Source of the DNA: Candidatus Levyibacteriota bacterium
Lineage (GTDB): Bacteria > Patescibacteriota > Microgenomatia > Levybacterales > UBA12049
Length of the DNA stretch: 64,000 nucleotides
Reading direction: 5' to 3'
Assembly: GCA_003152105.1 (NCBI GenBank)
Contig: PLZJ01000002.1
Span: forward strand, 848,112-912,111
Both the position numbers and the translations under genes were made by a program. The notes under the pieces are model-generated. The model saw only the letters and a list, made by a program, of their open reading frames with translations, ran no database searches and had not been told where the DNA came from. Every line of letters begins with the position of its first letter. Position 1 is the stretch's first letter. Of the stretch, positions 39,801 to 64,000 are shown piece by piece.

Positions 39801-41570
39801 ATGCAAATTAACAAGTTTAATGAATTAATTGAGGAGATTGAACGCAGTTCGTTTTCCGTAAAATACGATTTCGAAATAGCTAATTTGTTCAATAATCTAA
39901 TTGAAAAATACCCAACAAATTTTACTCCTGAGCAAATACAACAATTAAAATGGGAGTTCCTTCTGTTTCGTCTTATGACAAAAAATAGCTTTGCTGCTGA
40001 CGGACTTCGTACTGATCGTTTTGTTCCTATGGCAACTTACAATAATGGAGCTATTTTCCCTGATCCAAACTCTTTTTCTGATGAGGCATTGGTATATTTT
40101 GAAAAGAGAGCGAAAGATTCTAAGAATCCTATTTTAACAACTCGGTATCTTGATTTTCTCTGGGAAAAATCAAAATCAAAGAAGAAGCACATTTTTGCTA
40201 TTGAAGCTATTGAACAATACCTATTAACAGTGGATGCTTATGACAATGAAGATGTTGTTTTTGAAAAACTAGATGGACTTCAGAGAGCAACTGAACTATG
40301 TCTTATTCTTGAAGGTAAATCAAAAAAGAAACCTCTAACTGAAAAGTTAGTAATTAGGCTCAATGAACAAATAAATGTAACAAATGAAAAAAAGAATTTC
40401 CGTTGGTTTCTGGAAATGTTTGAACTAGTAATTGCATTAAAACAGTTTTATACAGAAAAACAAATCAAAGAATTTATAAAGTTATGCGAAGAAAGCGCAA
40501 GACAATATCATAAAGATCAGAATTTTCATCTCCAAAGGTCATTTTTAGAGTTGAAATCTAAACTAGGAAAACTACTTAGATCATCAGATGCTATTAAAAA
40601 TGATGTTGATGAGCAAATAGGACTGTCTTTAATAGCTGAAGCTGAAGCAAAATCAGGAAGCGGTTTAGTTAAGGCTCACTTCCTGCAAGAAGCAGTTGAG
40701 CATTATAGAAAACTCGGTAATAAGAAAAAGGTAGAAGAACTCATAACTCAAATAAAAGAGGCCACTGGCCAGGCTATAAAAAATAAAGAATTTAAACACT
40801 TCTCCTCAACAGTTGAATTAAAAAAAGAGGATGCAGAGTCTATGAAAAAAAGCTTAGGAACTGGAAAGGACGTACCCCAAAACATGGGAACACCTCCCAA
40901 TTTTTTTCCGAACTGGAATCATGCAATCAAACTAACTGAAGACCTAAGTAAAAAATATGTCGTCTCACATTTGTTTCCAATAGTGCATTATGGAGAAAAG
41001 TATCCAGTCGGAAAACCTCAAACCTCAGAGGAAATCCACGAAGATCAAGTAATGCAGAATTTCAAGATTTCTGCGCAGCTTGCAATACACTGGCTTACAA
41101 AATTCTTATCAGAGCTTATTGAGGAAAAGAAAGTTAACATAGAAGACTTCAAGGATTTTTTTGCATTATTGAAAGAAATAGACAATGATACATATGAGAC
41201 TGTTTTAGAGGGACTTGATTCATACTTTGATGATGACCATTTTCGTGCAACAACTATTCTTGCACCACAATTAGAAGATATCCTTAGAAAATTACTTGCT
41301 GTATTTGGTGGACAGACTACAAAAGCTAATACCACAGCTTTCGAGGAAAAAACACTTGGAACGGTTCTATCAGAATTAAAACCAGCAATATCAGAACCTA
41401 TATATTACTACATTAGCTGGGTTATGAAAGATTACCGTGGACTCAATCTAAGAAATAATGTTGCTCATGGCTTTTTTAAAAAAAGACAAGGAAGTCCGTT
41501 CTATTCAACTGCTCTTCTTCATATATTTTGTCTGCTGATTGCTAATACAAAGGTATCTGTCAAAAAATAA
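39801..41570 (+). CDS. Large alpha-helical protein with C-terminal HEPN-like R-x4-H motif (Abi-like candidate)
   Basis: 589 aa. C-terminal LRNNVAHGFF fits the HEPN Rx4-6H signature. Otherwise predicted helical with no other motifs. Confidence 0.4.
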   Translation: MQINKFNELIEEIERSSFSVKYDFEIANLFNNLIEKYPTNFTPEQIQQLKWEFLLFRLMTKNSFAADGLRTDRFVPMATYNNGAIFPDPNSFSDEALVYFEKRAKDSKNPILTTRYLDFLWEKSKSKKKHIFAIEAIEQYLLTVDAYDNEDVVFEKLDGLQRATELCLILEGKSKKKPLTEKLVIRLNEQINVTNEKKNFRWFLEMFELVIALKQFYTEKQIKEFIKLCEESARQYHKDQNFHLQRSFLELKSKLGKLLRSSDAIKNDVDEQIGLSLIAEAEAKSGSGLVKAHFLQEAVEHYRKLGNKKKVEELITQIKEATGQAIKNKEFKHFSSTVELKKEDAESMKKSLGTGKDVPQNMGTPPNFFPNWNHAIKLTEDLSKKYVVSHLFPIVHYGEKYPVGKPQTSEEIHEDQVMQNFKISAQLAIHWLTKFLSELIEEKKVNIEDFKDFFALLKEIDNDTYETVLEGLDSYFDDDHFRATTILAPQLEDILRKLLAVFGGQTTKANTTAFEEKTLGTVLSELKPAISEPIYYYISWVMKDYRGLNLRNNVAHGFFKKRQGSPFYSTALLHIFCLLIANTKVSVKK

Positions 41571-43387: not shown

Positions 43388-44140
43388 ATGACTAAAATAA
43401 TAATTACTGAAAACACTGAACTTCAGAAAATTGTAAATGATTATCAAAATTACATAGAAAAATTTTGTGAACTTTCAGAAAGAAGTGCATCCTATCTTGA
43501 TGAGTGGGGAGATGAAAATCTTGATTCCTTATCTCAATATAAAAAGGAGTGTGTTATTAGAATTGCAAGAAAAGTATACGATAATGAACGGTTCACACCT
43601 ATTAAAGCCAAACTTGATTATCTTATAAACTGCTGGTTTGATATTGATAATCAGAATGAATTAAAAATAATAGTTAACACAAAAGCCCCATCATGGGTAC
43701 AAAGCTTATTTAATGATTATTTGCCTCAAGAGTTTAGTGAGTATCACAAAAAAAGAAAAGAAAATCCGCAAGATCTTGTACCAGATTTAAATAAAATGAC
43801 TGGCGTAGAATTTGAAAATTATGTTGCAAATTTGCTCAAGCAGATTGGATATAATGTTTCAGGAACCTCAGCAACTGGAGATCAAGGTGCAGACTTGATT
43901 GCCACTAAAAACGATAAAATTTATGTAATACAAGTTAAAAGATATTCAGGAACTGTAGGTAATAAGGCAATACAAGAAGTAGTAGCTGCAAAGAAATATT
44001 ATAATGGAGATGTTGCAGCTGTAGCCACAAATTCATCTTTTACTCCATCAGCAGTTAAACTAGCAAAAATTAACAATGTCATTCTATTACCTGAATCATC
44101 TTTTCAGTCTATTGATGCCTTTTTAAATAATAAATTTTAA
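43388..44140 (+). CDS. Mrr-like restriction endonuclease domain protein (Mrr_cat C-terminal domain)
   Basis: C-terminal GVEFENYVANLLKQIGYNV...GDQGADLIA...IYVIQVKRYSG matches the Mrr_cat PD-(D/E)xK fold. Confidence 0.7.
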   Translation: MTKIIITENTELQKIVNDYQNYIEKFCELSERSASYLDEWGDENLDSLSQYKKECVIRIARKVYDNERFTPIKAKLDYLINCWFDIDNQNELKIIVNTKAPSWVQSLFNDYLPQEFSEYHKKRKENPQDLVPDLNKMTGVEFENYVANLLKQIGYNVSGTSATGDQGADLIATKNDKIYVIQVKRYSGTVGNKAIQEVVAAKKYYNGDVAAVATNSSFTPSAVKLAKINNVILLPESSFQSIDAFLNNKF

Positions 44141-44161: not shown

Positions 44162-45412
44162 TTAGTCGTACAAATCTTTCAATTCCTTCACATTTCCCCC
44201 AAAAGCAACTCGGTCAAGGATAAGATCATTCATTCCCATCATAAGAGCGGGAGTAATAACAAATTCTCCATATCTGTCATTAATATTATCAATAGCTAGT
44301 GCAGCTTTCCTTTTTTTCCCCTCATCAAGGTCAAAAAGAGATGGTTGTGATTTTCCGGATGGAGTAAATGCATAACAGGTGACGCTAAGTTTAGAAACTG
44401 GTTTAAGTTCTGGTTGCTGGTTAAAAACAAGTTGCACTCGCTCATATAGTTCAGTTGTTGTAAACATTTCCATATCTTGCAGTCTGCCTCTGTGCCAATG
44501 CGACCAATCTGAGTAAACGCAGGAAACATGTACACCATGTGCAGTCCATCCCTGACTTCGAAGTCGTCTTCCCATTTTTTCTGTTAATTTCATAAGTAGC
44601 ATTGAAAGCATGCGTTTATCTGTTGTTGCTTTTGGGAGCGCATATTGTTGCCCAATACTTTTTGTCTGAAATTCTACCTCATCAACTTCGTACCCTCTTA
44701 TTCGGTAATACCAATCTCTACCGCATTTACTTCGAAATACTTGTTTCTCAAGAAGATCTACTGGAGCGTTGAGAAAATCTATCGGTGTAAAAATACCATG
44801 CGCATTAAGCCTTGCTTCAAACCTGGTATTAATTCCATTGAGGTCAACAAGCGTGACGATTTTATATACATCAAGTAAATTCTCATGTGTTATGACATCT
44901 AGTCCGTCCGGTTTATGAAGTGAAGCAGCAAGTTTTGCAAGAAATCTGTTTGTTCCTATTCCTATATTGCAACTCATCCATTCTCCAATTTCTTCTCGTA
45001 TCCTTTGCTTTATTTCCTTCCCTATTGCAATCAGATCTGGTCTAAGTCTTTGAACGCTTTCCAAATTAACAACTACTTCATCAATTGATTTTGGAGTAAC
45101 ATCCGGTGAATACTCTCTAAATATTTTGTTAAATTTTGTATATACATCCCGGTAGAGTGTAGGAGTTGGTGTATGGACGTTAACTTGAGGATAAAGTAGT
45201 TTTGCCTCTCTTACAGACATTCCTGTTTTAATACCATATCGCTTGGCTTCAATACTTGGTGCAACAACGCAACCGGCAGGAGAATCGTAAGCCGCAATAA
45301 CAAGTGGCTTTCCCCTGTAATGAGGATTAGCCTGTTGTTCACATGTTGCAAAACAAGAGTTTAAATCGACATGCATAACAAGTGGAGTATTTCGGTTGAT
45401 TGGTAAATCCAT
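44162..45412 (-). CDS. umuC: Y-family DNA polymerase (UmuC/UvrX-like, error-prone)
   Basis: N-terminal MHVDLNSCFATCEQ and overall Y-family pattern. Confidence 0.85.
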   Translation of the reverse strand: MDLPINRNTPLVMHVDLNSCFATCEQQANPHYRGKPLVIAAYDSPAGCVVAPSIEAKRYGIKTGMSVREAKLLYPQVNVHTPTPTLYRDVYTKFNKIFREYSPDVTPKSIDEVVVNLESVQRLRPDLIAIGKEIKQRIREEIGEWMSCNIGIGTNRFLAKLAASLHKPDGLDVITHENLLDVYKIVTLVDLNGINTRFEARLNAHGIFTPIDFLNAPVDLLEKQVFRSKCGRDWYYRIRGYEVDEVEFQTKSIGQQYALPKATTDKRMLSMLLMKLTEKMGRRLRSQGWTAHGVHVSCVYSDWSHWHRGRLQDMEMFTTTELYERVQLVFNQQPELKPVSKLSVTCYAFTPSGKSQPSLFDLDEGKKRKAALAIDNINDRYGEFVITPALMMGMNDLILDRVAFGGNVKELKDLYD

Positions 45413-45413
45413 A

Positions 45414-45674
45414 TTAATTACTTATCCCATCTGAAACTTCTTCTAAATTCCAAGAAAGATTAAATGTGTCAAAGCGAAGTCTAAAATAAAACTTGTTTGA
45501 ACTTACGTGAAAGAGATGATGCACTGTTCCGCCTACTTTTTCTCTATGTACGTAAGCTAGTTTTTCAATCTTGTAATCTTTTCCATTCCAGCGAATACGA
45601 GCCGGGAATAATTTATCTCCCATCTTTTTAAACACACCAATGACTTCAACTTTTTCATTGATTTTCTCAAGCAT
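45414..45674 (-). CDS. yolD: YolD-like protein (UmuD-analogous accessory of Gram-positive Y-family polymerases)
   Basis: 86 aa immediately upstream of the Y-family polymerase gene, with YolD-like size and pattern. Confidence 0.5.
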   Translation of the reverse strand: MLEKINEKVEVIGVFKKMGDKLFPARIRWNGKDYKIEKLAYVHREKVGGTVHHLFHVSSNKFYFRLRFDTFNLSWNLEEVSDGISN

Positions 45675-45684
45675 AGAATATCTC

Positions 45685-46260
45685 CTATCGGTATCTTCTG
45701 AGTGATGAAACTACCACACCGCCAATAGTTAGCGAATATTTTGGTTCAATTGGCTGATATTTTGGATTAGCAGGAATAAGCCTTACTTTTCCGTTTTTCA
45801 ATTCATAGTATTTAAGTGTCCATTCATTATCAACAAGTGCTGCAACAATATCATTTGTACGAGGTTGTAAATCAAGATCAACTACAACTCGGTCTCCGTC
45901 ATAAAGTCCAGCACCAATCATAGAATCTCCAGACACTGTTAAGATAAAAGAAGAATTTGGGCTATGCACTAAATATGTATCTAAAGAAAGTTCTTCAACT
46001 ACTTCATTTGCAGCATCTTGTGGAAATCCTGCCTTAATCATTCCGTATGAGCGAAGAGTTAACGATAAATTTTTAGGAAGTAATCTTCCGTTTTTATCTT
46101 TTTCAATAATTCCTTCTTTAATTAACTGGTGTGCAAGATAAAACGCAGAACCTTTTGTTTTGTAATGAAACATTTTTCGAAGTTCCTCATAGGAGGGCAT
46201 TCTGTTATGAGTTTTATAAAAGTATCTTAACCTTTCAATTGCTAGTTCTTTTTCTACCAT
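45685..46260 (-). CDS. lexA: LexA-like S24 peptidase repressor
   Basis: N-terminal wHTH. Ala-Gly cleavage site (MIKAGFP). Ser-Lys dyad motifs GDSMIGAG ... NEWTLKYYE. Confidence 0.85.
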   Translation of the reverse strand: MVEKELAIERLRYFYKTHNRMPSYEELRKMFHYKTKGSAFYLAHQLIKEGIIEKDKNGRLLPKNLSLTLRSYGMIKAGFPQDAANEVVEELSLDTYLVHSPNSSFILTVSGDSMIGAGLYDGDRVVVDLDLQPRTNDIVAALVDNEWTLKYYELKNGKVRLIPANPKYQPIEPKYSLTIGGVVVSSLRRYR

Positions 46261-46273
46261 ACTAATTTTTAGT

Positions 46274-46294
46274 TATAATTGAACGATCGTTCAA
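46274..46294. promoter_or_regulatory. Cheo-type SOS box TTGAACGATCGTTCAA with adjacent TATAAT, in the divergent lexA-like/plus-operon promoter region
   Basis: Perfect palindrome GAAC-gatc-GTTC at 46281-46292, 21 nt upstream of the lexA-like start. TATAAT at 46274-46279. Confidence 0.75.
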
Positions 46295-46368
46295 AAGTCA
46301 AGGGATTATACGAATATAAAGCGAACGTAAAATCATGGTTTATAAACTTTAGTGGTATAATTGCAATT

Positions 46369-47121
46369 ATGAAAACTGAAGTTCAGGCTGAAATGGCAGC
46401 AATATTACACGCATATAACTCAAACTATGATGGGGGGGAAGATGATGTTTTGGTTGCAACTCCTGACGATAACACGAAAATTGTTGCTGAGTATATCAGA
46501 ATGAGATTATTGCCGGCAGTGCATAAAGCATCTGAATTTGAAGCCACATTTGATAGCACAGTTATTTGGCCGGAACAAGAATTAGCTGACTATGACAGGG
46601 ATTTAGAAGCTATTAGAGCAATGACAAAAAAACAAAGGGTTAGTTTGGATGATCAATTGCTTGAAATAAGTGGTCGCAAAAGGGATAGAGGTGGAATAAT
46701 GGTGCTAAGATCATCGCATGGCGATCAGGTTGCAGGATTTGCAATTGATTCACATACTTTAAAATCTGCAGAAACACAGGGTTTTGGCCTTCATGCATTG
46801 GCCGCAATGAACCTGAGCGCTGAATTAGATGACCTTGAAGATTATGACAGAGAAACTGTCGGAGTTATATTACGGGGGAATATCTTTTTTGATGTTGAAG
46901 GATTTAAGACCCCCATTGTCCAGTTATTTCTTCCGTGGCCGGTTCAAGATCATTCAGAATTTGATCCTCAGTTTCAACGAGTTGGTTCTCATTTAATTTC
47001 TCAGAGAAGAATGATTCCAGTTGATTATGATTGTAATCTGGTAGACGGGACCTTTTCATTTAATGGAGCTGATAGATATGAAGTTAAACCACTCAAGACA
47101 ATTAAGCAGCTAATTAAATAA
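46369..47121 (+). CDS. Hypothetical protein, SOS-box-proximal
   Basis: Preferred ATG at 46369 (MKTEVQAEMAA...) because the track's TTG start at 46279 lies inside the SOS box. No motifs recognised. Confidence 0.4.
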   Translation: MKTEVQAEMAAILHAYNSNYDGGEDDVLVATPDDNTKIVAEYIRMRLLPAVHKASEFEATFDSTVIWPEQELADYDRDLEAIRAMTKKQRVSLDDQLLEISGRKRDRGGIMVLRSSHGDQVAGFAIDSHTLKSAETQGFGLHALAAMNLSAELDDLEDYDRETVGVILRGNIFFDVEGFKTPIVQLFLPWPVQDHSEFDPQFQRVGSHLISQRRMIPVDYDCNLVDGTFSFNGADRYEVKPLKTIKQLIK

Positions 47122-47153
47122 CACGCGCTGTTTGATATAATAACCCTAACAAT

Positions 47154-47831
47154 ATGTGCGGACGATACGGATTTACCAGTGAAATTGCAGATGTAAAAAC
47201 CAGATTCGATATTGAAAGATGGTTAGATAAAATTTATGATAAGGAAGAACTCTATAATATCGGTCCGGGTACTAGAAATCCAGTAGTAGTCAGACGATCT
47301 CCAAATTCAGGTCTTCTTATGAAATGGGGTTGGACATGGGATGTGCCGTGGATGGAAAAGCCACTATTTATTATTAACGCCAGAAAAGACAAGCTTACTA
47401 CCTCGAAAGCATATAAAAAGCCATTTTTATTTCAGCGTTGTATTATTCCTGCAAATTTCTTTTATGAATGGAAAGCAATAGGTAAAGAGAAATATCCGTA
47501 TCTTTTTAAGTGTAAAGATCAAAAATTATTTGGTTTTGCAGGACTTTACTTTACGGAAAAAGACGCAGAAGGTAAAGAAGCAGAATATTATGTAATCATT
47601 ACAACCGATGCAAATGAAATTATGCAACCAATACATCACCGAATGCCGGTTATTTTGGATAAGGAGGATGAAGACACATGGTTAAACCCTGACAATGTAG
47701 AACAGGAACAGCTTTTGCCCCTACTTAAACAATACTCATCGGACAAAATGGAATGTTACCCTGTTTCGCAAGCAGTTAATTCTACTAGAAATGATAATGG
47801 AGACTTAATAAAACCTATTGATAGTAAATAA
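47154..47831 (+). CDS. SOS response-associated peptidase (SRAP/YedK/HMCES family)
   Basis: Hallmark N-terminal MCGRY (Cys2 nucleophile), SRAP-like length and pattern. Confidence 0.85.
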   Translation: MCGRYGFTSEIADVKTRFDIERWLDKIYDKEELYNIGPGTRNPVVVRRSPNSGLLMKWGWTWDVPWMEKPLFIINARKDKLTTSKAYKKPFLFQRCIIPANFFYEWKAIGKEKYPYLFKCKDQKLFGFAGLYFTEKDAEGKEAEYYVIITTDANEIMQPIHHRMPVILDKEDEDTWLNPDNVEQEQLLPLLKQYSSDKMECYPVSQAVNSTRNDNGDLIKPIDSK

Positions 47832-48286: not shown

Positions 48287-51200
48287 TTAAACAGGTGCAT
48301 CTTCCCAAAGCTTTCTTAATTCTTCATTAATTTGTAATTTTTTTACGGCTTTATCCAATATCTGCCTTACTCTTTCTCTCGTAAGACCTCCATAAATTTC
48401 ACCTATAGCTTCTAAAGTCATTGGTTCATCGCTTCCGATACCATGTCTCATTTTGAGCATTTCTAACTCTCTTTCCGTCAATAACCCTCCTACAATACCC
48501 TCTATTTGCTCAATATTATCATCGTCTGTTGCACCAGGCTGGTAATCTTCGTAGTTATCTGCAACAAATTCTCCAAGAGTTGTTTCTGTATCTGATCCAA
48601 TTGGCCTATCCAGAGATGCCACTCTAGTAACTTTTCCTTCAAACAAATCCATAACAATATCAATTCTTTCTAGCTGTGCTTCTTCCAATAAGCTTCTTAA
48701 CTCTTTTTTAGTTGGAGATCTATTTTCCCGTACTTCGAACTCAGTCACGATTTTCATAGCTTTTCCATATACTTCTCGCGCATGGATAGGAATTCTAATC
48801 ATACTTCCGTCATTTTTAACTGCCCTATCAATACTTTGAGCTATCCAAGGAGTAGCATACGTTGAAAACTTATTTCCTGTATGATAATCGAATCCTTCAA
48901 CTGCTCTTTTTAAACCAAAATAACCCTCTTGAACTCTATCTTCTATGGTTAAAGCATGATACTTTTTAGCGATATGAATCACTAATCTAAGATTACATAA
49001 AGCAACAAGTTCTTCAATAGATTCACCATCTCTAGAGACATTTGCAAATAATCCTTCAGATTTTGGTCTGATTGTTTTTAAAAAGTCAGTATCTTGGAAA
49101 AGACTATCAATAGTTTTTCCTTCTTCCAAAAGTTTGAATATAATATTCTCCTGTTGTCTACTCAGTAGTGGATATTGTGCGGCTTGCGTCATGTATCTTC
49201 GGAAAGAGTCAACTTCCTCAAAACTCATTCCATTAAAATCTTCAGTTGAAAAAACCACTACGTCTTCACCATCGGACTCATAAGAATTTCTTTCTCTTTC
49301 TGCCGTACCATTTCCTCTAAATCTTGAAGAAAATTGCTGTCTAACACTATTTGGTTCTGGTGGCTTATTTGATTTTACTTGCGACAATTCATCCCTTAAT
49401 ATTTGCATACCATGTTCGTTAGCTGTAAATATCTGTCTTCGTCCAACATTACTCTTTGTAATATACTGTGGATGACTTACGGCTAGCTCATTTAAGCGTT
49501 TATATATTGCAGATCCGGTTCTTAAACCAAATTCCCGTGCTAAATCAAATATTGGTACTTGAGTGAATCCATCTTCAACACTACTACCGTATTCCACCTG
49601 TAAAGTGGTTAAGAGTTGAGGCGCTATGAACCATTGCCATCCTTTTTCACTTCTTCTAACTGAATCTGGGTCAGCAGCCTGTAGCTCTTTTAACCTTTTA
49701 TATATCCTGCTTCTCTTTCCTTCGCCAACTTGCTGAACTAATTCATTTATTGGAAGAGGTATTAACCCTTCAGGAGCAGCTAATCCTCTAATTCTATCCA
49801 GCAAAAGTTCATATCCTTCTGCTGATATATAATTAGATCTATTTATGCTTTTAAAATGTTGTGGATTTTCTTCATGCAAAGCTCTTAAGTGATACAATAC
49901 TCTGCTTGATTCCATTCCGAATTCAAACGCTATGTCATTGGGAGTAAATCTTTGAAATCCTTCTGGAATATTAATTGCTTGCTCTCTTTCTTCAGCGTAT
50001 CTGTTTATTACTTCCATTACTTCTTCAAGATTTGTTATAACTTTCAGTCCTTCTATATGAATTAAAGGGGAAGATCCTCTAAAAGAACCCGAATATGTTC
50101 GTCCTGTAAATTCTTTGGCTTTTTTCGGAGCAAATGCAGTGCCTGCAACTTCAGCAAAAGTTAAAGCTCGGCCCTTTGCATGCTTATTTTCATCAACGAC
50201 ATCAATAATGATTGCTTCCTTATCAGGATTATTAGGATCAAGCCTCAACACTCTTCCTCCTCTTTGAATTGCGTTTACTTTTGACAAAGTCGGTGCAAGA
50301 TTAATCAGCAAGTTAGCATTAGGTGCGTCAATACCTTCTGCTAAAAGTTTTTTGCTTAGTAAAACTTTAATCTTTCCACTTTTAAAATCATCTAAGTATT
50401 GTTTTCTTGTTCTTTTATCAAGCCTCCCATGAAACGCTCTAGCTTCTATTCCTTCTGCACGAAACATCTCTTCAAGTTCAATAGCATGCTTAACTGATAA
50501 AGTAGTTATAAAAGCGGAGGAATCTGGGAAATGATTTTTATATATGTCGACTGCTGCTTGATTTCGCTTTGCAATATTTAATGCCCTCTCAAGTTGTTTT
50601 GGGTCATACTCACCAGTTGAAGAGATAATTGGAACCTGTGACATATCTATATCGGTTTGAGCAATAAACACCTTAAATGGAGAAATTAATCCTTCTTCAG
50701 CAGCTTCTTTAATTGTTACATAATGCATTTTCTTCTCAAGAAGTAAACCTACATGCTTATCGGTTGAATACTCTGGTGTAGCGCTAAGACCCAACTTAAT
50801 AGCTCCCTTAAATTGCCTTATTGCATCCATTCGAGCTGGTGTTAAAGCCTTATGAGCCTCATCACATATTACAAATCCGTAATCTGATGGATTAATGGTG
50901 CCTTCTTTTACGCCTTTTAATAGGTAATCATATGTTGTTATCGTAACATCTCGATCTAACTGCTTAACATGAGTGTAGGCCAATCCGGTTGGTATATTAG
51001 GAACAAACTGTGTAAATGTATCCTGCATTTGCTGTACTAAATCTTGAGTTGGAGTTATTATCAATGTTTTGGCTCTTAAAGCTTTTACCATTTCTGCAGC
51101 TAATACAGACTTTCCAGTTCCTGTAGGAAATTCAATATAGCCTTCTGTTGAACCCTCAGCTAAATTCGATCTAATATCTTCAAATACCGTAAACTGATGC

Positions 51201-51550
51201 TCTCTTAAAACCCTATCAACATCTCCAATTTTATGTGCTGCAATATAATCATCAAGATTTGCTAGAGCTAATTTTTGCTGTATCTCAGAAGCCATTTCGT
51301 CAGTTAAACTTCCATCCTTACGAGTAAGCCTAACTAATTGGGGGTATAGAGATACTCTGACAGGATATCGAGTTTCCAATTCATCCTGGGGAAATGCAAC
51401 CAAACTATCTATTCCGTCTATTGAATCATGGACGGCGGGTAACAAATTTTGGCCTACATTTTGTTTCACGAATGTATTTACTTCTCGCAATTGTCCAGCA
51501 AGCTCGGTAGTGCTTTTTGTCCTTGATGTTTTAATTTCAGTTTTTACCAT
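48287..51550 (-). CDS. Fusion protein: SF2 DEAH helicase + tandem wHTH-like repeats + complete sigma-70 (regions 2-4) domain
   Basis: Walker A PTGTGKS, DEAH VICDEAHK, LSATP and motif VI QRGGRVLR. C-terminal sigma region 2/3 KFSTYATPWIAQSIDRAV and MIRIPIHAREV, region 4.2 TLEAIGEIYGGLTRERVRQILDKAVKKL. Confidence 0.8.
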   Translation of the reverse strand: MVKTEIKTSRTKSTTELAGQLREVNTFVKQNVGQNLLPAVHDSIDGIDSLVAFPQDELETRYPVRVSLYPQLVRLTRKDGSLTDEMASEIQQKLALANLDDYIAAHKIGDVDRVLREHQFTVFEDIRSNLAEGSTEGYIEFPTGTGKSVLAAEMVKALRAKTLIITPTQDLVQQMQDTFTQFVPNIPTGLAYTHVKQLDRDVTITTYDYLLKGVKEGTINPSDYGFVICDEAHKALTPARMDAIRQFKGAIKLGLSATPEYSTDKHVGLLLEKKMHYVTIKEAAEEGLISPFKVFIAQTDIDMSQVPIISSTGEYDPKQLERALNIAKRNQAAVDIYKNHFPDSSAFITTLSVKHAIELEEMFRAEGIEARAFHGRLDKRTRKQYLDDFKSGKIKVLLSKKLLAEGIDAPNANLLINLAPTLSKVNAIQRGGRVLRLDPNNPDKEAIIIDVVDENKHAKGRALTFAEVAGTAFAPKKAKEFTGRTYSGSFRGSSPLIHIEGLKVITNLEEVMEVINRYAEEREQAINIPEGFQRFTPNDIAFEFGMESSRVLYHLRALHEENPQHFKSINRSNYISAEGYELLLDRIRGLAAPEGLIPLPINELVQQVGEGKRSRIYKRLKELQAADPDSVRRSEKGWQWFIAPQLLTTLQVEYGSSVEDGFTQVPIFDLAREFGLRTGSAIYKRLNELAVSHPQYITKSNVGRRQIFTANEHGMQILRDELSQVKSNKPPEPNSVRQQFSSRFRGNGTAERERNSYESDGEDVVVFSTEDFNGMSFEEVDSFRRYMTQAAQYPLLSRQQENIIFKLLEEGKTIDSLFQDTDFLKTIRPKSEGLFANVSRDGESIEELVALCNLRLVIHIAKKYHALTIEDRVQEGYFGLKRAVEGFDYHTGNKFSTYATPWIAQSIDRAVKNDGSMIRIPIHAREVYGKAMKIVTEFEVRENRSPTKKELRSLLEEAQLERIDIVMDLFEGKVTRVASLDRPIGSDTETTLGEFVADNYEDYQPGATDDDNIEQIEGIVGGLLTERELEMLKMRHGIGSDEPMTLEAIGEIYGGLTRERVRQILDKAVKKLQINEELRKLWEDAPV

Positions 51551-59318: not shown

Positions 59319-60959
59319 ATGGATTTGAAAAATCGTCAGTATGCTGATGGAAAAAGAGCTGTTATTTACTTAAGAGTTTCAACTGAGGAACAGGTTGATA
59401 ATTTTTCACTAGATACACAAGAAGATATATGTCGGAAGGAAGCTGAGAAAAAAGGTTATGAAGTAATTGATATTTTTAGAGAAGAAGGAAGATCTGCAAA
59501 AAATATTGTTGGCAGACCTGTACTTATAAGTCTCCTCGAGTATTGCCGAAAAAATAAACAGAGGATACAGGCAGTCTTCGTCTATCGCATAGACCGAATA
59601 TCTAGACAAACTGCTGATTATTTAGCGATTAGAAAGAAACTACTTGAAAATGACGTAACAATTATATCCGCCACAGAACCAACTGGAGATTCTCCCACTG
59701 AAAAACTTGTAGAAACAATTCTCGCTGGATTTGCGCAATTAGATAATGATATTCGGTCTGAAAGGGCTAGAAATGGTCTTAGGGCAAGATTTAATTCTGG
59801 TTTACTAGGTGGAGGTACTGCGCCGCTTGGATATATATTCCAATCTGGATTCGTGGTAAAAGATCCAAAAACATGGGACAGAGTTAAAGAAGCATGGGAT
59901 TTAATGGCAACTGGTACAAAAAGTACCAGAGATATGGCTCTCATAATGAATAAATGGGGCTTACGAGAAACACGAAGACATAAAGAATATGAACTGCGAG
60001 CACAAACTACTTGTGGAATTTTTAGATTAAAATTTTATGCTGGTTTTCTTACATCCAAGAGATATCAACAAGAGGTAAAAGGGCAACATGTCCCTATGAT
60101 TACTGAAGAACAATTTTATAAAGTCCAGGCAATAATAGATGGCAGAAAAACTACTAAAATACCTTTAGCTCGAAGGACTTTTGAGAATACGGACTTTCCT
60201 CTTAGAAGAATTGTAAAATGCGCGAAATGCGGAATGGGATTAACCGGCTCATGGAGCACAGGAAGACATGGCAAAAAATATGCACATTACTTTTGTTCAA
60301 GTAAGTGTAATTATAAATGTATTCCAGTAAAACTTATGGAAGACGAACTTATTAAAGCTCTAAAAAGAGTTCAGCCTAAAAAAGAAACACTCAAACTATT
60401 TATAGATTCTATATTTCGAATTTATAATCAACGGCTATCAAGATTAACAAAAATAAAAAATGATGCAGATTCTGAAATAGAACGACTTAAGGCACTCAGA
60501 AAGGCAGTTGTTGAAAAAAATCTAGAAGGTGTTTATTCCAATGAGGTATTTAAAGAGCAAAACAGTATTATCGAAGAGAAGATAACAATGGCATATATAG
60601 TAAAAGATGATGCTAACTTAGAAAAGTACAATGTAAATGCATTAACTGATTTTATTAAAACCATTCTGGCAGATCTGGGAGAAACATATAGAAGATCAAG
60701 TATTGGACAGCTAAAAGTACTCCTGGGTTCCGTGTACCCTGGTGGAATCGCTTGGGACTATTCTGGTACATTGGACCCCTCGATTAGCCCGATATATCAA
60801 CATATTCGAACGTTTTCGAATGAGGTCATCCAGTCTGGAGCGGTGAATGGGACTCGGACCCACGACCTTCTCGTTGAAGGCGGTATGTTCCGCACAAAGA
60901 GACTTCTTTTCAAAGCTATAATATCATCGTGTTACCATTTAGTAAATATGACAAAGTAG
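59319..60959 (+). CDS. Large serine recombinase (integrase)
   Basis: Resolvase catalytic N-terminus AVIYLRVSTEEQ ... VYRIDRISR. Recombinase domain and zinc ribbon CAKCGMGLTGSW...HYFC. Coiled-coil region. Confidence 0.9.
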   Translation: MDLKNRQYADGKRAVIYLRVSTEEQVDNFSLDTQEDICRKEAEKKGYEVIDIFREEGRSAKNIVGRPVLISLLEYCRKNKQRIQAVFVYRIDRISRQTADYLAIRKKLLENDVTIISATEPTGDSPTEKLVETILAGFAQLDNDIRSERARNGLRARFNSGLLGGGTAPLGYIFQSGFVVKDPKTWDRVKEAWDLMATGTKSTRDMALIMNKWGLRETRRHKEYELRAQTTCGIFRLKFYAGFLTSKRYQQEVKGQHVPMITEEQFYKVQAIIDGRKTTKIPLARRTFENTDFPLRRIVKCAKCGMGLTGSWSTGRHGKKYAHYFCSSKCNYKCIPVKLMEDELIKALKRVQPKKETLKLFIDSIFRIYNQRLSRLTKIKNDADSEIERLKALRKAVVEKNLEGVYSNEVFKEQNSIIEEKITMAYIVKDDANLEKYNVNALTDFIKTILADLGETYRRSSIGQLKVLLGSVYPGGIAWDYSGTLDPSISPIYQHIRTFSNEVIQSGAVNGTRTHDLLVEGGMFRTKRLLFKAIISSCYHLVNMTK

Positions 60960-61001
60960 AAGAAGTGCTTAAAACCGAGAACTGAAATAAGTTTTCTTAG
61001 C

Positions 61002-61030
61002 TTGACAAGTGAACGATCGTTCTATATAAT
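61002..61030 (+). promoter_or_regulatory. Sigma-70 promoter TTGACA-17-TATAAT with an SOS box (GAACGATCGTTC) in the spacer
   Basis: TTGACA at 61002-61007, GAACGATCGTTC at 61011-61022, TATAAT at 61025-61030. The box core is identical to the one at 46281-46292. Confidence 0.75.
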
Positions 61031-61036
61031 CAGTTT

Positions 61037-62068
61037 GTGAGGGTAAATTTAGAAACAGCAATATCGCGCATACAAGATTTTCATAAAAGTAATGGAAGAG
61101 TTCCTACATATAAAGAGCTTGCAAAAATGTTTGGCTTCGCTTCTAAAAATTCCAGTTTTCAACTCGTTAAAAAATTGATAGCGCAAGATGTCTTAGAGAA
61201 AGATAAAACAGGAAAAATAGTGCCAAAAAATCTTTTCAAAATACCTCATCCTGAACTAACCAAGGCAAGAATTACTTCTACTGATTTGAAATCAATTCTT
61301 GATGATTTATTAGATGCGACACACGCCCTAGCCGAAGCTCATCCATGTCCACACAATACTGAAGACAAATTTCTTCGAGTGTTGGAAGCAACATATAGAA
61401 GAGATACATTCACTATGTTGGCAATCTCCTATCTCTCGCAAAAACTTCCACTTGCTGATAGTGCTGTGGATTTGGTACGAAAAGTCATTGAAGATACCAT
61501 TTCAATTGAGTATATGATTGCAAAAGGGAAGCAAGAAATGGCAGAAAAATTCCAAAAATTCATGTGGATACAAATTCATCAGAATAAGGAGTTTTTGAAA
61601 ACAACGGGAGCGAATTTTGAAGCTTTGGGTATTGCTCAAAAATCAGAGGAATTAGAGAGAAAATACCAAGAAGTTCAAGGAGACTTTATTCACGCACCAA
61701 CGCAAACAGATTTGAGATCATGGATCGGAAACGATGCAAAAGATGTAGAGGACATGCTTAGACAATTAAAGCAGATGGGCAAAATGAATGATTTTGATGT
61801 AAGTAGAACAGCAATCGGGTATGTACGAGCTTGTTGGAAAAATCATTTTAATCCATATGATGTGATGGCATATCTTACAAACGACTTACTAGAAGCAAGT
61901 ACTCAGGAAGCAATGAATCATGCGCTAATTTTTGCAGCAACCTGCCATTATAGATTAACAACTCGATACATTGATCAAATACGAGAAACAACACATGACA
62001 ATAATCAATTTGAGCATGTCCATAAGAAGATTGACGTAATTTGGCAACGACTTAATCCTAAAGATTAA
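61037..62068 (+). CDS. LexA-DNA-binding-domain paralog fused to an uncharacterised C-terminal domain (no S24 peptidase)
   Basis: N-terminal ~70 aa align to the lexA-like N-terminus (LETAISRIQDFHKSNGRVPTYKELAKMF against KELAIERLRYFYKTHNRMPSYEELRKMF; ...EKDKTGKIVPKNL against ...EKDKNGRLLPKNL). GTG start right after the promoter. Confidence 0.55.
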   Translation: MRVNLETAISRIQDFHKSNGRVPTYKELAKMFGFASKNSSFQLVKKLIAQDVLEKDKTGKIVPKNLFKIPHPELTKARITSTDLKSILDDLLDATHALAEAHPCPHNTEDKFLRVLEATYRRDTFTMLAISYLSQKLPLADSAVDLVRKVIEDTISIEYMIAKGKQEMAEKFQKFMWIQIHQNKEFLKTTGANFEALGIAQKSEELERKYQEVQGDFIHAPTQTDLRSWIGNDAKDVEDMLRQLKQMGKMNDFDVSRTAIGYVRACWKNHFNPYDVMAYLTNDLLEASTQEAMNHALIFAATCHYRLTTRYIDQIRETTHDNNQFEHVHKKIDVIWQRLNPKD

Positions 62069-62080
62069 TAAAGAAAACTT

Positions 62081-64000
62081 ATGTTATTTTCTAGTGATGC
62101 AGCAATCAAGTCAAAAAAAGAAGATGCTCTTAATCGAGCGACGTTTTCAGAACACCTGGGTAACGCAATTCTTGATTGGACAAAAAAAGAAACAATGGTA
62201 CTAGGTTTATATGGAGAATGGGGGACAGGGAAAAGTTCCATTATAAATTTAGCACTAGAACATATTAACAATAAAACTAAAAACGATGGAGCAAGTGAAC
62301 CAATAATTTTTCGCTTTAATCCTTGGAATTTTACTGAACAAAATCAATTAGTTACAATTTTCTTATCTGAATTATCAAAAACAATAGGGTTTCAAGGAAA
62401 ATCTGAGCAAGCTTCCTCCGTAGGTAAAACGCTTATCTCATACAGTAAATTTTTTACACCGTTGTCTATTCTTGCAACACTGTTTCCACAGTTCGCACCA
62501 TTAATGAAATTGCCAGAAGAAACATTAAGAGGAATTGGTGATGCTGCAAAACAATGGGCTGAACTAAATGAAAAAGACTTACAAGCTTTGAAATCTGAAC
62601 TCGATAATCAAATTGTCAAATTGAATCGAAAGATAATAATAGTTATTGATGATATTGATAGATTAAATAAACTAGAAATTCGTCAAATATTCCAATTAGT
62701 AAAAATGAATGCCAATTTTCCAAATACAATCTATATACTTTCTTTAGATGATCAAAAGGTAGCAACTTTATTAACAGAAGATAAATTCCCAGGCAAAGAC
62801 TATCTTGAAAAGATCGTACAGGTACCTTTTCATGTACCTGCAATCGAGAGGAAAAGAATTGAAAAAATTCTTTTTAATGAACTCAATTCAATAATAAAAC
62901 CTCTGCAATCAAAGGAGACTCCTTTTGATAGGAAAAAATGGCAAGATATTTATTTTGAAGGATTAAGTGGATTATTCCCTTCATTGCGAAGAGTTAAAAG
63001 ATTTATTAACGGCTTATGTTTTACTATAACAATTGTTCCAAATGAAATAAACGTTATTGATTTCATTGGAATAGAAGCAATTCGTGTTTTTTTCCCTGAA
63101 GTATATACAAGAATTGCAAAAAATAAAGCATTATTTGTTGGTGATGATTTCTCATTTAATGAAGACGATCGAAAAACTAAAATCGAAAAACTCCAAAAAT
63201 TAATTGAAGTTGCTCCTGAACCTGATAAGAAATATCTAACTAAAATAATCTATCAACTTTTCCCTCAATTTACAAGCAATTATGGCTCTGAATGGCAAGA
63301 CATTTGGGAAGGTAAAAAATTAATTTGTTCGAGATATAGATTTGATAGTTATTTTTTTCTTTCAGTTCCAGAAGGACATTTATCGCAACAGAGAATTGAT
63401 CATCTATTATTACAAGCATCAAATAGAAATGATCTTGAAAAATCATTAATTGCGCTTATAAAATCAAAAAAAATAAGAAAATTTTTAATAAGAATCCCTG
63501 ACTTTAAAGAAAGAATATTGGAGAAAAATATACCTAATTTCATTATCGCTATTTTTAATATCGCAGACATACTTCCTCAAAATAGAGAAAATGATTTGGA
63601 CTTTGGTGCAACAATGGAAGCAACAAGAATCGCATATCAACTATTAAATAAAATTCAAGATGAAAAGAAGAGGCAACGAATTGCTACTAAAGTGATACGC
63701 GAAACTTCGGGAATAATTGCTCCTATAGAATTCCTATCTTATGAGGTAAGTAGAATGAAAAAAAATGAGGCTACGAGATTAATCAAGGACGATAAAGTGG
63801 TTGAAAAACTCGTACTGATTATGAGCAATAAATTGAATAAACGAGCCAAGGAAGATAACCTAAAATCAATCCCTAGTTTAACGACTGTTCTTCGGATATG
63901 GAAGGGTTGGGGTGGCGAAGATAATGCAAGAGAATTAATAACTTATTTGCTTAAAAATAATGGTGGTATTGGAAGAATTTTAGAAGGATTCAGTTGGCAA
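62081..64000 (+). CDS. KAP-family P-loop NTPase (partial, continues past the window end)
   Basis: Walker A LYGEWGTGKSS and Walker B IIVIDDIDR. The ORF is open to the window edge and absent from the ORF track because no stop occurs. Confidence 0.7.
   Translation, partial: MLFSSDAAIKSKKEDALNRATFSEHLGNAILDWTKKETMVLGLYGEWGTGKSSIINLALEHINNKTKNDGASEPIIFRFNPWNFTEQNQLVTIFLSELSKTIGFQGKSEQASSVGKTLISYSKFFTPLSILATLFPQFAPLMKLPEETLRGIGDAAKQWAELNEKDLQALKSELDNQIVKLNRKIIIVIDDIDRLNKLEIRQIFQLVKMNANFPNTIYILSLDDQKVATLLTEDKFPGKDYLEKIVQVPFHVPAIERKRIEKILFNELNSIIKPLQSKETPFDRKKWQDIYFEGLSGLFPSLRRVKRFINGLCFTITIVPNEINVIDFIGIEAIRVFFPEVYTRIAKNKALFVGDDFSFNEDDRKTKIEKLQKLIEVAPEPDKKYLTKIIYQLFPQFTSNYGSEWQDIWEGKKLICSRYRFDSYFFLSVPEGHLSQQRIDHLLLQASNRNDLEKSLIALIKSKKIRKFLIRIPDFKERILEKNIPNFIIAIFNIADILPQNRENDLDFGATMEATRIAYQLLNKIQDEKKRQRIATKVIRETSGIIAPIEFLSYEVSRMKKNEATRLIKDDKVVEKLVLIMSNKLNKRAKEDNLKSIPSLTTVLRIWKGWGGEDNARELITYLLKNNGGIGRILEGFSWQ

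What the first reader, a model, noticed from the sequence alone, without database searches (positions are those of the whole stretch)
60990..64000. Second identical SOS box inside a consensus sigma-70 promoter driving a LexA-DBD paralog that lacks the protease domain, followed by a KAP NTPase
TTGACA-17-TATAAT (61002-61030) carries the same GAACGATCGTTC core in its spacer. The downstream 343-aa protein has an N-terminus clearly paralogous to the LexA-like DNA-binding domain (…KDKTGKIVPKNL against …KDKNGRLLPKNL) but an unrelated C-terminal ~270 aa with no Ala-Gly/Ser-Lys autocleavage module. A non-cleavable LexA-DBD protein induced by the SOS response could act as a secondary repressor or anti-repressor. 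Immediately downstream, 12 nt after its stop, is a KAP P-loop NTPase (GEWGTGKSS, IVIDDIDR), a family recurrent in defence islands. This suggests a damage-inducible regulatory and defence unit next to the serine recombinase.
Basis: partly seen in the sequence, partly recalled or inferred. Interest (0 to 1): 0.65.

Follow-up and report, generated by a model that had tools for sequence, protein, structure and literature searches.

The report
LexA-type repressor head fused to DUF5677
A small mobile gene in a candidate-phyla-radiation (CPR) bacterium has copied the promoter, operator and DNA-binding head of the SOS repressor LexA and joined them to an uncharacterised domain, and here it also drives a PifA-like anti-phage ATPase, so it is a probable self-repressing, possibly damage-inducible switch on a small genomic island.

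Summary
These are present: a perfect TTGACA-17-TATAAT promoter, the GAACGATCGTTC box filling its spacer, a 343-aa ORF, and a KAP NTPase 12 nt downstream.

The interpretation needs revision in four respects.

- **Not a recent copy of the resident lexA.** The ORF's head is closer to mainstream CPR LexA proteins (54-59% identity) than to the resident LexA (47%).
- **A self-contained cassette.** DNA homology to relatives starts at the -35 hexamer and ends at the stop codon. All ten relatives examined carry a GTGAAC-N4-GTTCAC-type palindrome in the promoter spacer. That is the operator found in the own promoters of LexA proteins with the same recognition-helix class. Autoregulation is therefore the best-supported reading. 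Cross-repression by the resident LexA, whose own box is TTGAAC…GTTCAA, is plausible but unproven.
- **The tail is DUF5677.** This all-alpha domain has no structural match. The fusion forms a single 50%-identity cluster among 1.84 billion representative proteins.
- **The KAP gene is variable cargo.** It matches PifA at full length but is not a conserved partner. The unit sits at the far end of a ~7.7-kb island in tRNA-Gly, with a weak tyrosine-integrase match at its tRNA end. The serine recombinase lies outside that island.

This is a new variant of a known kind and of moderate interest.

The parts
60838..60896 (-). Fragment of the 3' half of a tRNA-Gly gene. It is the left direct repeat (att remnant) of a ~7.7-kb island. 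The intact tRNA-Gly(GCC) lies 7.7 kb to the right, beyond the window, at the position equivalent to window 68593-68665.
   Evidence: The direct repeat is 79% identical over 39 nt and contains the exact core CAACGAGAAGGTCG. The intact tRNA is in L026. ARAGORN and Rfam do not call the fragment as a tRNA.
61002..61030 (+). Consensus sigma-70 promoter, TTGACA-17-TATAAT. The start codon follows after a 6-nt gap, so the mRNA is probably leaderless.
   Evidence: 12/12 match. The same layout is seen in 9 orthologous loci.
61009..61024 (.). 16-bp operator GTGAACGATCGTTCTA (core GAACGATCGTTC at 61011-61022). It occupies all but the first base of the 17-nt promoter spacer.
   Evidence: A palindrome is conserved at the same position in 10 of 10 orthologous promoters.
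61037..61234 (+). LexA-type winged-helix DNA-binding domain (aa 1-66). The recognition helix reads ASKNSSFQLVKKLI.
   Evidence: 47% identity to the resident LexA. 45% identity over 91 aa to Roizmanbacteria LexA P0118. Foldseek best matches are LexA 3jso and 1lea and viral 'LexA DNA-binding domain' proteins.
61235..61276 (+). Linker (aa 67-80). It aligns with the LexA linker and cleavage-site region but reads TKAR (Ala77-Arg78) where LexA has VKAG.
   Evidence: pLDDT falls below 50 at residues 73-76.
61277..62068 (+). All-alpha DUF5677 domain (aa 81-343) and the stop codon. R148, E152 and H270 are invariant or nearly so across the wider family.
   Evidence: PF18928 scores 23.4 bits, below the cut-off of 27.1. 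Close homologues carry PF18928. AF2 model pLDDT is 85. No PDB or viral fold match was found.
62081..64000 (+). PifA-like KAP P-loop NTPase, cut by the window end. The full gene is 711 aa and ends at the position equivalent to window 64216. Walker A lies at 62210-62236 and Walker B at 62639-62662.
   Evidence: PF07693 E = 3.8e-48. PADLOC PifA E = 1.1e-81 over profile positions 6-710 of 720 for the full protein. The contig extension is L026.
46279..46294 (.). Operator of the resident lexA promoter, TTGAACGATCGTTCAA. It lies between TTGACT and TATAAC on the minus strand.
   Evidence: An identical site precedes the lexA of L017.
45685..46260 (-). Resident LexA (191 aa, winged helix plus S24 peptidase). 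It is the first gene of lexA - 86-aa ORF - Y-family polymerase and is divergent from an SRAP operon.
   Evidence: The synteny is conserved in L017 and L018. The protein belongs to a large family of ~190-aa proteins, several of which are named 'repressor LexA' by their sources.

Best explanation
The 343-aa gene is an autonomous, self-repressed cassette. It combines the 5' module of a CPR lexA gene (sigma-70 promoter, operator in the spacer, leaderless start, winged-helix head and linker) with a DUF5677 domain in place of the S24 autoprotease.

The proposed mechanism is as follows. The protein dimerises through its C-terminal part. It binds the palindrome that fills its own promoter spacer and so excludes RNA polymerase, as LexA does at lexA. 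Because it lacks the cleavage module, RecA cannot inactivate it. Any release must come through the DUF5677 domain or through dilution.

In this genome the operator core is identical to that of the resident lexA, so the resident LexA probably also binds it. That would make the unit at least partly inducible by DNA damage. The PifA-like KAP NTPase, 12 nt downstream with no promoter or terminator between, is cargo transcribed from this promoter. Its expression would therefore be held low until derepression.

The unit is the distal cargo of a ~7.7-kb island integrated into tRNA-Gly.

**Shown:** the anatomy, the homology relations, conservation of the operator, the match between operator class and recognition-helix class, the variability of the cargo, and the island borders.

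**Inferred:** DNA binding by the fusion protein, binding by the resident LexA, co-transcription, the leaderless start, dimerisation, and the defence role.
For: - **The cassette is the conserved unit.** blastn homology to L001 and L003 begins at 61000/61001 (the -35) and ends at 62068-62072 (the stop).
- **The operator travels with the gene.** All 10 fusion genes examined carry a palindrome between -35 and -10, with the start codon after a gap of only 3-6 nt.
- **Operator class matches helix class.** In lexA loci from metagenomes, the residue aligned to fusion position 42 tracks the outer operator bases. All 15 lexA loci with K or R at that position in which a palindrome was found have GT…AC or GG…AC flanks, 9 of them exactly GTGAAC…GTTCAC. 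None of the 27 or so clean sites of other helix classes has both flanks (also L029). Nine of the ten fusions have K42, and those nine have GT…AC flanks.
- **Origin of the head.** It is 54-59% identical to Roizmanbacteria/Woesebacteria-type LexA, with a near-identical recognition helix (GFASKNAAFKLAQKLID against GFASKNASFKLVQKLIE). Identity to the resident LexA is 47%.
- **Repression geometry.** The 16-bp site fills the spacer.
- **Autonomy.** In L001 and L003 the gene stands alone. Elsewhere different genes follow it.
- **Possible LexA cross-talk.** The 13-nt core is identical to the resident lexA operator and had zero occurrences in 100 shuffles.
- **KAP gene.** Full-length PifA HMM match. 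No promoter or terminator separates the two genes.
- **Island.** tRNA direct repeat, a weak tyrosine-integrase match next to the tRNA, and an HTH_3 regulator.
Against: - No binding, transcription or induction data exist.
- The helix-operator correlation rests on related sequences and is not a set of independent events.
- The window's own protein is the exception in its group. It has Q42 instead of K42, and its right half-site flank is TA instead of AC, so its self-recognition may be weaker than in its relatives.
- DUF5677 is normally a stand-alone ~255-aa protein without any DNA-binding domain. Its many invariant polar residues (R148, E152, H270, Y262, W229) suggest an enzyme or ligand pocket rather than a plain dimerisation domain. 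The DNA-binding head may therefore be secondary to an unknown activity.
- Dimerisation is assumed, not shown.
- A DUF5677 ORF was among nine tested for phage defence in E. faecalis and is not named among the five that the authors report as active (PMC12632615).
Confidence: 0.55

Rival explanations
1. This is an ordinary member of the SOS regulon. Only the resident LexA binds the box. The gene and the KAP NTPase are switched on by RecA-stimulated LexA cleavage after DNA damage. The winged-helix head of the fusion protein binds some other target or none.
For: The 13-nt core is identical to the resident lexA operator. The position inside the spacer is the same as at lexA. LexA control of genes carried by mobile elements is common (established knowledge, for example colicins and integron integrases).
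Against: The operator travels with the gene through at least ten genomic contexts. Its outer bases follow the fusion's own helix class (GTGAAC…GTTCAC) and not the resident class (TTGAAC…GTTCAA). A retained LexA-type head sitting opposite its cognate operator is most simply explained by autoregulation.
Confidence: 0.2
2. This is a non-cleavable SOS super-repressor carried by a mobile island. The fusion protein occupies host LexA boxes genome-wide and damps or resets the host SOS response. That could block induction of resident prophages or rival elements. Its own promoter would be one target among many.
For: The head is of the mainstream CPR LexA type, so it should read SOS boxes in hosts whose LexA uses GTGAAC…GTTCAC. 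The protein has no protease domain or cleavage site. The gene sits on islands. Phage GIL01 offers precedents: its gp7 enhances host LexA binding to DNA and inhibits RecA-mediated LexA auto-cleavage (abstract of PMC4551915, listed), and its gp1 is modelled to bind DNA through a winged helix (PMC11511902).
Against: In this window the host LexA uses a different flank class. Only two boxes exist in the 71 kb examined, so host-wide targets are unverified. This model does not explain why the C-terminal partner is always DUF5677 with conserved polar residues.
Confidence: 0.12
3. DUF5677 is the working part, an enzyme or abortive-infection-like effector. The LexA module only keeps its dose low. The KAP NTPase is an unrelated neighbouring defence gene that happens to share the transcript.
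For: Stand-alone DUF5677 proteins dominate the family. R148, E152 and H270 are near-invariant. The cassette is complete on its own in L001 and L003. DUF5677 is enriched near serine recombinases together with defence genes (PMC12632615).
Against: No known catalytic fold or motif was recognised. There is no PADLOC hit. The DUF5677 ORF tested in E. faecalis is not named among those reported as active.
Confidence: 0.13

Closest known systems
LexA repressor (CPR / Gram-positive-type, GAAC-N4-GTTC operator)
   Same: The winged-helix head and linker are homologous at 45-59% identity. The operator is embedded in the spacer of the gene's own promoter. The untranslated leader is very short or absent. 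The recognition helix and operator belong to matching classes.
   Different: There is no S24 peptidase domain, no Ser-Lys dyad and no Ala-Gly site. A DUF5677 domain takes their place. The gene is carried on islands and is not part of the lexA-polymerase core locus.
Stand-alone 'LexA DNA-binding domain' proteins of phages (Tectiviridae and others); GIL01 gp1
   Same: A LexA-type winged helix without a protease, encoded by a mobile element. GIL01 gp1 is modelled to bind DNA through a winged helix, in a paper on GIL01 autoregulation (PMC11511902).
   Different: These are single-domain proteins of 70-100 aa. None carries DUF5677. No sequence-level relation to this protein was shown.
pif operon of the F plasmid (pifC-pifA-pifB)
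   Same: A PifA-family KAP NTPase (PADLOC PifA E = 1e-81) lies downstream of a repressor gene in the same transcription unit. The F operon layout is from my memory of the 1980s literature and was not retrievable here.
   Different: The upstream regulator is unrelated to PifC. No pifB is present. Identity to plasmid KAP proteins is only about 28%. The pairing is not conserved among relatives of the regulator.
Defence-island regulators such as BrxR/CapW (wHTH-WYL) and CapH/CapP
   Same: The logic is the same: a winged-helix or HTH repressor is the first gene of a variable defence operon, represses its own promoter, and is released by a stress signal (established knowledge).
   Different: The domains are unrelated. 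Here the operator code is borrowed from LexA and the sensing domain, if it is one, is DUF5677.
Stand-alone DUF5677 proteins (PF18928)
   Same: The C-terminal 260 aa are homologous at 34-53% identity and share invariant motifs.
   Different: They lack any DNA-binding head. They sit inside other operons, for example after a 760-aa protein with a weak GHKL-type ATPase (HATPase_c_3) match and a 322-aa protein in L007, and have no LexA-type operator.

Membership tests
LexA repressor (TIGR00498 / LexA_DNA_bind + Peptidase_S24) | N-terminal LexA-type winged-helix DNA-binding domain | tested here: met
   47% identity to the resident LexA and 45% over 91 aa to P0118. The best fold match is LexA 3jso/1lea. 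Pfam PF01726 hits neither this protein nor the resident LexA, so that model is uninformative here.
LexA repressor (TIGR00498 / LexA_DNA_bind + Peptidase_S24) | C-terminal S24 peptidase domain with a Ser-Lys dyad | tested here: not met
   There is no PF00717 hit, while the resident LexA scores 91 bits. The C-terminus is all-alpha.
LexA repressor (TIGR00498 / LexA_DNA_bind + Peptidase_S24) | Ala-Gly autocleavage site in the linker | tested here: not met
   The aligned position reads Ala77-Arg78. The protein contains no AG dipeptide (read from the translation).
LexA repressor (TIGR00498 / LexA_DNA_bind + Peptidase_S24) | Palindromic operator overlapping its own promoter | tested here: met
   The feature is conserved in 10 of 10 orthologues.
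SOS regulon of the host | Bound by the resident LexA and induced by DNA damage | not testable with these tools
   Only sequence evidence is available. The core is identical to the lexA operator but the outer bases differ.
DUF5677 (PF18928) | Match to the family HMM above the gathering score | tested here: inconclusive
   The window protein scores 23.4 bits against a cut-off of 27.1. Homologues at 59-72% identity carry PF18928, and L007's stand-alone protein scores 38.1 bits.
KAP P-loop NTPase (PF07693) | HMM match with Walker A and Walker B motifs | tested here: met
   164 bits against a cut-off of 20. GEWGTGKSS and IVIDDIDR were read.
KAP P-loop NTPase (PF07693) | Transmembrane helices inserted in the NTPase domain (typical of many KAP proteins) | not tested
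   No transmembrane prediction was run. The KAP of L022 shows obvious hydrophobic inserts by eye, and the window protein does not.
PifA defence system (PADLOC PDLC02361) | Full-length match to the PifA model | tested here: met
   E = 1.1e-81, residues 4-686 against profile positions 6-710 of 720.
PifA defence system (PADLOC PDLC02361) | Excludes phage by abortive infection | not testable with these tools
   This requires phage challenge experiments.
tRNA-integrated genomic island | Direct repeat of the tRNA 3' part at the distal end, and an integrase next to the intact tRNA | tested here: met
   The repeat is shown. tRNA-Gly is. The 341-aa ORF next to it gives only a sub-threshold Phage_integrase match (E = 1.3e-4, 22 bits against 27), so the integrase assignment is weak.

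The most novel reading that the evidence does not exclude
The fusion is a 'signal-swapped LexA'. It keeps the LexA operator code and promoter architecture but has exchanged the RecA-triggered autoprotease for a DUF5677 sensor that responds to a different cue, for example a phage product or a nucleotide. It would thereby gate interchangeable defence cargo (PifA-like and QatA-like KAP NTPases, and other unknown genes) on mobile islands of CPR bacteria. Because it shares the operator core with the host LexA, it would also couple that cue to the host SOS network.
Probability: 0.25. Interest if true: 0.7.

Novelty: new variant of a known kind. Interest (0 to 1): 0.45.

Why it matters
If the model holds, a complete regulatory module (promoter, operator and DNA-binding head of LexA) has been lifted as one piece and attached to a different output domain on mobile DNA. 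This would be a clean natural example of how regulatory circuits are rewired.

It would also give DUF5677 its first functional handle.

It would add a candidate regulator of PifA/KAP-type defence genes in CPR bacteria, where almost nothing is known about gene regulation or phage defence.

The by-product table linking LexA recognition-helix class to the outer operator bases can be used directly to predict SOS boxes in uncultured lineages.

Tried and rejected
- **KAP NTPase as a conserved partner: rejected.** In nine other fusion loci the downstream gene is absent, convergent, a 221-aa plus 258-aa pair, a 257-aa gene, or a different KAP only 32% identical over 103 aa. DNA homology stops at the stop codon.
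- **Recent duplication of the resident lexA: rejected.** The head is closer to other CPR LexA proteins.
- **K37T in the helix covarying with GAAC to GAAT in the box: rejected as a general rule.** lexA loci L043 and L037 have T at that position with GAAC boxes. The three T37 fusions form one clade.
- **tRNA-Gln at 28.6 kb as the partner of the tRNA-like fragment: rejected.** The sequences do not match. The partner is tRNA-Gly downstream.
- **Pfam LexA_DNA_bind as a test: uninformative.** It misses the genuine LexA as well.
- **Other searches for DUF5677: nothing found.** There is no PADLOC hit, and the only PHROG hits fall in the N-terminal head. There is no relative in viral contigs, phage records or plasmid records.
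- **hhalign of DUF5677 against the recurrent downstream genes g2 and g3: nothing**.
- **Neighbours of stand-alone DUF5677 genes: no consistent partner**.
- **Resident lexA in the other fusion loci: none within the DNA held**.
- **Papers:** the Patescibacteria SOS paper (Sanchez-Osuna et al. 2017) and the pifC literature could not be read.
Full report
**1. Checking the observation**

The sequence is as described.
- TTGACA lies at 61002-61007, followed by a 17-nt spacer and TATAAT at 61025-61030. This is the only 12/12 promoter match in 58.8-64 kb.
- GAACGATCGTTC lies at 61011-61022.
- The same 12-mer occurs once more in the window, at 46281-46292. There it sits in the spacer of the promoter of a 191-aa winged-helix plus S24 protein encoded at 45685-46260 on the minus strand.
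- The shared 13-mer TGAACGATCGTTC never appeared in 100 shuffles. GAAC-N4-GTTC occurs 3 times against 0.5 expected.
- The 16-bp sites differ in their outer bases: TTGAACGATCGTTCAA at lexA and GTGAACGATCGTTCTA here.

The ORF at 61037-62068 (343 aa) starts with GTG after a gap of only 6 nt from the -10, so its mRNA is probably leaderless. Its first 64 residues are 47% identical to the resident LexA, E = 1e-18.

The KAP NTPase starts at 62081. It matches PF07693 at E = 3.8e-48 and PADLOC PifA at E = 7.8e-81.

**2. The resident LexA**

It belongs to a large family of ~190-aa proteins, several of which are named 'repressor LexA' by their sources. Its locus has an SRAP operon divergent from lexA - 86-aa ORF - Y-family polymerase. 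The SRAP, lexA and polymerase genes are conserved in the closest relatives, with the 86-aa ORF called only in L017 (L017 and L018). The operators there are identical or similar: TTGAACGATCGTTCAA and TTGAACGGGGGTTCAA. This is the chromosomal SOS core.

**3. The 343-aa protein**

An AlphaFold2 model built on 26 homologues has pLDDT 85.
- Residues 1-66 form a winged helix. Their best PDB matches are E. coli LexA bound to DNA (3jso) and the LexA head (1lea). Their best viral matches include proteins annotated as 'LexA DNA-binding domain'.
- The rest is all-alpha and has no PDB or viral match.
- Pfam gives a sub-threshold DUF5677 hit (23.4 against 27.1 bits). Closer homologues and stand-alone relatives pass the threshold.
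- There is no S24 domain.
- The alignment with LexA runs through the linker to the cleavage site, where the protein reads Ala77-Arg78 instead of Ala-Gly.

**4. How rare the fusion is**

A word-indexed search of 5.8 billion proteins found 11 full-length fusions and 15 head-less DUF5677 proteins of about 262 aa.

A full HMMER scan of 1.84 billion representatives found 271 clusters at E <= 1e-3. Among the best 150, only one cluster has the 73-aa N-terminal extension.

Named genome hits fall in Curtiss-, Davies-, Roizman- and Saccharibacteria or are labelled Patescibacteria. Three others are labelled 'uncultured Gammaproteobacteria' and two only 'bacterium'. Nothing was found in viral contigs, phage records or plasmids.

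**5. Origin of the head**

The heads of the fusions are 54-59% identical to LexA proteins of the Roizmanbacteria/Woesebacteria type and 47% identical to the resident LexA. The recognition helices are almost the same: GFASKNAAFKLAQKLID in those LexA proteins and GFASKNASFKLVQKLIE in the fusions. The resident LexA reads HYKTKGSAFYLAHQLIK. The gene is therefore not a recent duplicate of the neighbouring lexA.

**6. The operator belongs to the gene**

DNA homology between the window and the loci of the closest relatives begins at 61000/61001, the -35 hexamer, and ends at the stop codon. All ten fusion genes examined have the layout TTGAC(A/G) - palindrome - -10-like hexamer (TATAAT or a near variant), followed by the start codon after a gap of 3-6 nt. 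The palindromes are:
- GTGAAC-N4-GTTCAC in six loci
- GTGAAT-AAAC-ATTCAC in two
- GTGAAC-AAAT-ATTCAC in one
- GTGAACGATCGTTCTA in the window

**7. Who reads the operator**

I collected lexA genes with their upstream DNA from metagenomes. I added the Roizmanbacteria lexA of L029, whose promoter reads TTGACTG-GTGAACATTCGTTCAC-TATACT. I then aligned the heads and tabulated each gene's own promoter palindrome.

The residue aligned to fusion position 42 tracks the outer operator bases:

| Residue at position 42 | Operator class |
|---|---|
| K or R | GTGAAC…GTTCAC |
| G | mostly CTGAAC…GTTCAG |
| F followed by W | TAGAAC…GTTCTA |
| Y followed by L (the resident type) | TTGAAC…GTTCAA |

For K or R, all 15 loci in which a palindrome was found have GT…AC or GG…AC flanks, and 9 of the 10 clean sites are exact. 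No clean site of another class has both GT…AC flanks.

Nine of the ten fusions have K42, and those nine have GT…AC flanks. Each fusion therefore sits behind the operator that LexA proteins of its own helix class use for autoregulation.

This is the main argument for autoregulation. It is comparative rather than experimental, and the sequences are related to one another. The window protein is the outlier, with Q42 and a right flank of TA.

Because the inner 13 nt equal the resident lexA operator, binding by the resident LexA is plausible, but nothing here shows it.

**8. Downstream genes vary**

| Locus | What follows the fusion gene |
|---|---|
| L001, L003 | a convergent gene |
| L004, L023, L024 | a 221-aa gene and a 258-aa gene, 2-11 nt apart |
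| L025 | only the 257-aa gene |
| L022 | a 224-aa gene, then a QatA-like KAP NTPase with hydrophobic inserts; a tyrosine integrase lies upstream |
| window | a PifA-like KAP |

The two KAP proteins share only 32% identity over 103 residues. The fusion gene therefore heads interchangeable cargo or stands alone.

DUF5677 and KAP NTPase domains were both reported as enriched beside serine recombinases. In that study KAP proteins were confirmed as anti-phage defences, while the DUF5677 ORF tested is not named among those reported as active (PMC12632615).

**9. The island**

Extending the contig (L026; window coordinate = L026 + 51036) gives the full 711-aa KAP, which matches the PifA model over positions 6-710 of 720 at E = 1.1e-81. 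Downstream lie:
- two unknown ORFs
- an HTH_3 regulator
- a 134-aa ORF
- a 341-aa ORF with a weak Phage_integrase match (E = 1.3e-4)
- tRNA-Gly(GCC)

The tRNA-like fragment at window 60838-60896 aligns to the 3' half of that tRNA, with the exact core CAACGAGAAGGTCG.

This is the textbook layout of a tRNA-integrated island of about 7.7 kb, with the fusion-KAP operon at its distal end. The serine recombinase at 59319-60959 lies outside the island, and the tail of its ORF reads through the att fragment. It probably belongs to the neighbouring region carrying conjugation-type genes: a coupling-protein-like ATPase, a weak relaxase-like match, and VirB4-like and TrbL-like genes.

**10. DUF5677**

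Across 136 family members, R148 and H270 are invariant. E152 (98%), Y262 (96%) and W229 (93%) are nearly so. That pattern suggests a pocket or active site rather than a simple dimerisation surface, but no known fold or motif was recognised. Stand-alone members sit in varied operons with no constant partner.

**11. Verdict**

The most likely mechanism is a self-repressed LexA-style cassette whose output domain is DUF5677. In this genome it is probably also cross-repressed by LexA, and it drives a PifA-like defence gene as island cargo.

The rivals cannot be excluded without binding and expression experiments. They are pure LexA control, a non-cleavable SOS super-repressor, and DUF5677 acting as the effector with the head serving only as a dose control.

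The architecture does not appear to have been described. Only two papers in the library mention DUF5677, and the one I read does not link it to LexA. However, the logic is familiar: a winged-helix autorepressor heading defence cargo. I therefore class it as a new variant of a known kind, of moderate interest.

Noticed in passing
window 60838-60896 and L026 9802-17629 (equivalent to window 60838-68665): A genomic island of about 7.7 kb is integrated in tRNA-Gly(GCC). It is bounded by a fragment of the tRNA 3' half and the intact tRNA. It carries a 341-aa ORF with a weak tyrosine-integrase match, an HTH_3 regulator and several unknown ORFs.
   Followed up: yes
L004 1-45, L005 ~55-100, L006 ~6745-6790, L023 ~20-65, L024 ~330-370, L025 ~1585-1640: A conserved element, AAATGAGACAAATGAGACAC-TATAAAAAGG-(N)GTGTCTCA, made of direct and inverted GAGACA repeats, lies directly upstream of the fusion-gene promoter in six relatives. 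It is absent from the window. It could be an att site, a second operator or a terminator hairpin, and remains unexplained.
   Followed up: partly
about 60 lexA loci, L029-L094: The LexA residue aligned to fusion position 42 tracks the outer bases of the gene's own operator. K/R goes with GTGAAC..GTTCAC, G with CTGAAC..GTTCAG, F-W with TAGAAC..GTTCTA and Y-L with TTGAAC..GTTCAA. This is a usable recognition code for predicting SOS boxes in uncultured lineages.
   Followed up: partly
window 48287-51550 (-): A 1087-aa protein fuses a ResIII/SNF2-type helicase (residues ~115-440) with sigma-70 regions 2 and 4 (residues ~850-1075). This is an unusual architecture.
   Followed up: no
window 59319-60959 (+): The last ~45 codons of the large serine recombinase ORF read through the tRNA-Gly att fragment. 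Its natural C-terminus may have been replaced when the neighbouring island integrated.
   Followed up: partly
window 39801-41570 (+) and 43388-44140 (+): A DUF7380+DUF4209 protein matches the PADLOC candidate defence family PDC-S39 (E = 1e-46). An Mrr-type restriction nuclease domain protein lies nearby. These are further defence-like genes close to the SOS locus.
   Followed up: no
window 44162-47831: The SOS core locus comprises lexA - 86-aa ORF - Y-family polymerase, divergent from a 250-aa unknown ORF and an SRAP (YedK-like) gene. The single operator at 46279-46294 could serve both directions. In relatives L017 and L018 the SRAP gene is directly divergent from lexA, without the 250-aa ORF.
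   Followed up: partly
L007 2084-6397: A stand-alone DUF5677 gene is the last gene of a tight four-gene operon. The others encode a 70-aa protein, a 760-aa protein with a weak GHKL-type ATPase (HATPase_c_3) match, and a 322-aa protein. Its start overlaps the upstream stop codon. This may be an uncharacterised defence-like system. The DNA just upstream of the DUF5677 gene is similar in L009 and L016.
   Followed up: partly
L026 18591-18820 (beyond the window): Two full 104-nt tandem repeats, with the start of a third copy, lie upstream of a response-regulator / histidine-kinase pair.
   Followed up: no
L004 1103-2556, L023, L024, L025: Two recurrent unknown genes follow the fusion gene in several relatives. 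One is about 221 aa with motifs such as RNRDFRNI at its C-terminus. The other is about 258 aa. Neither has a Pfam, PADLOC or PHROG match.
   Followed up: partly
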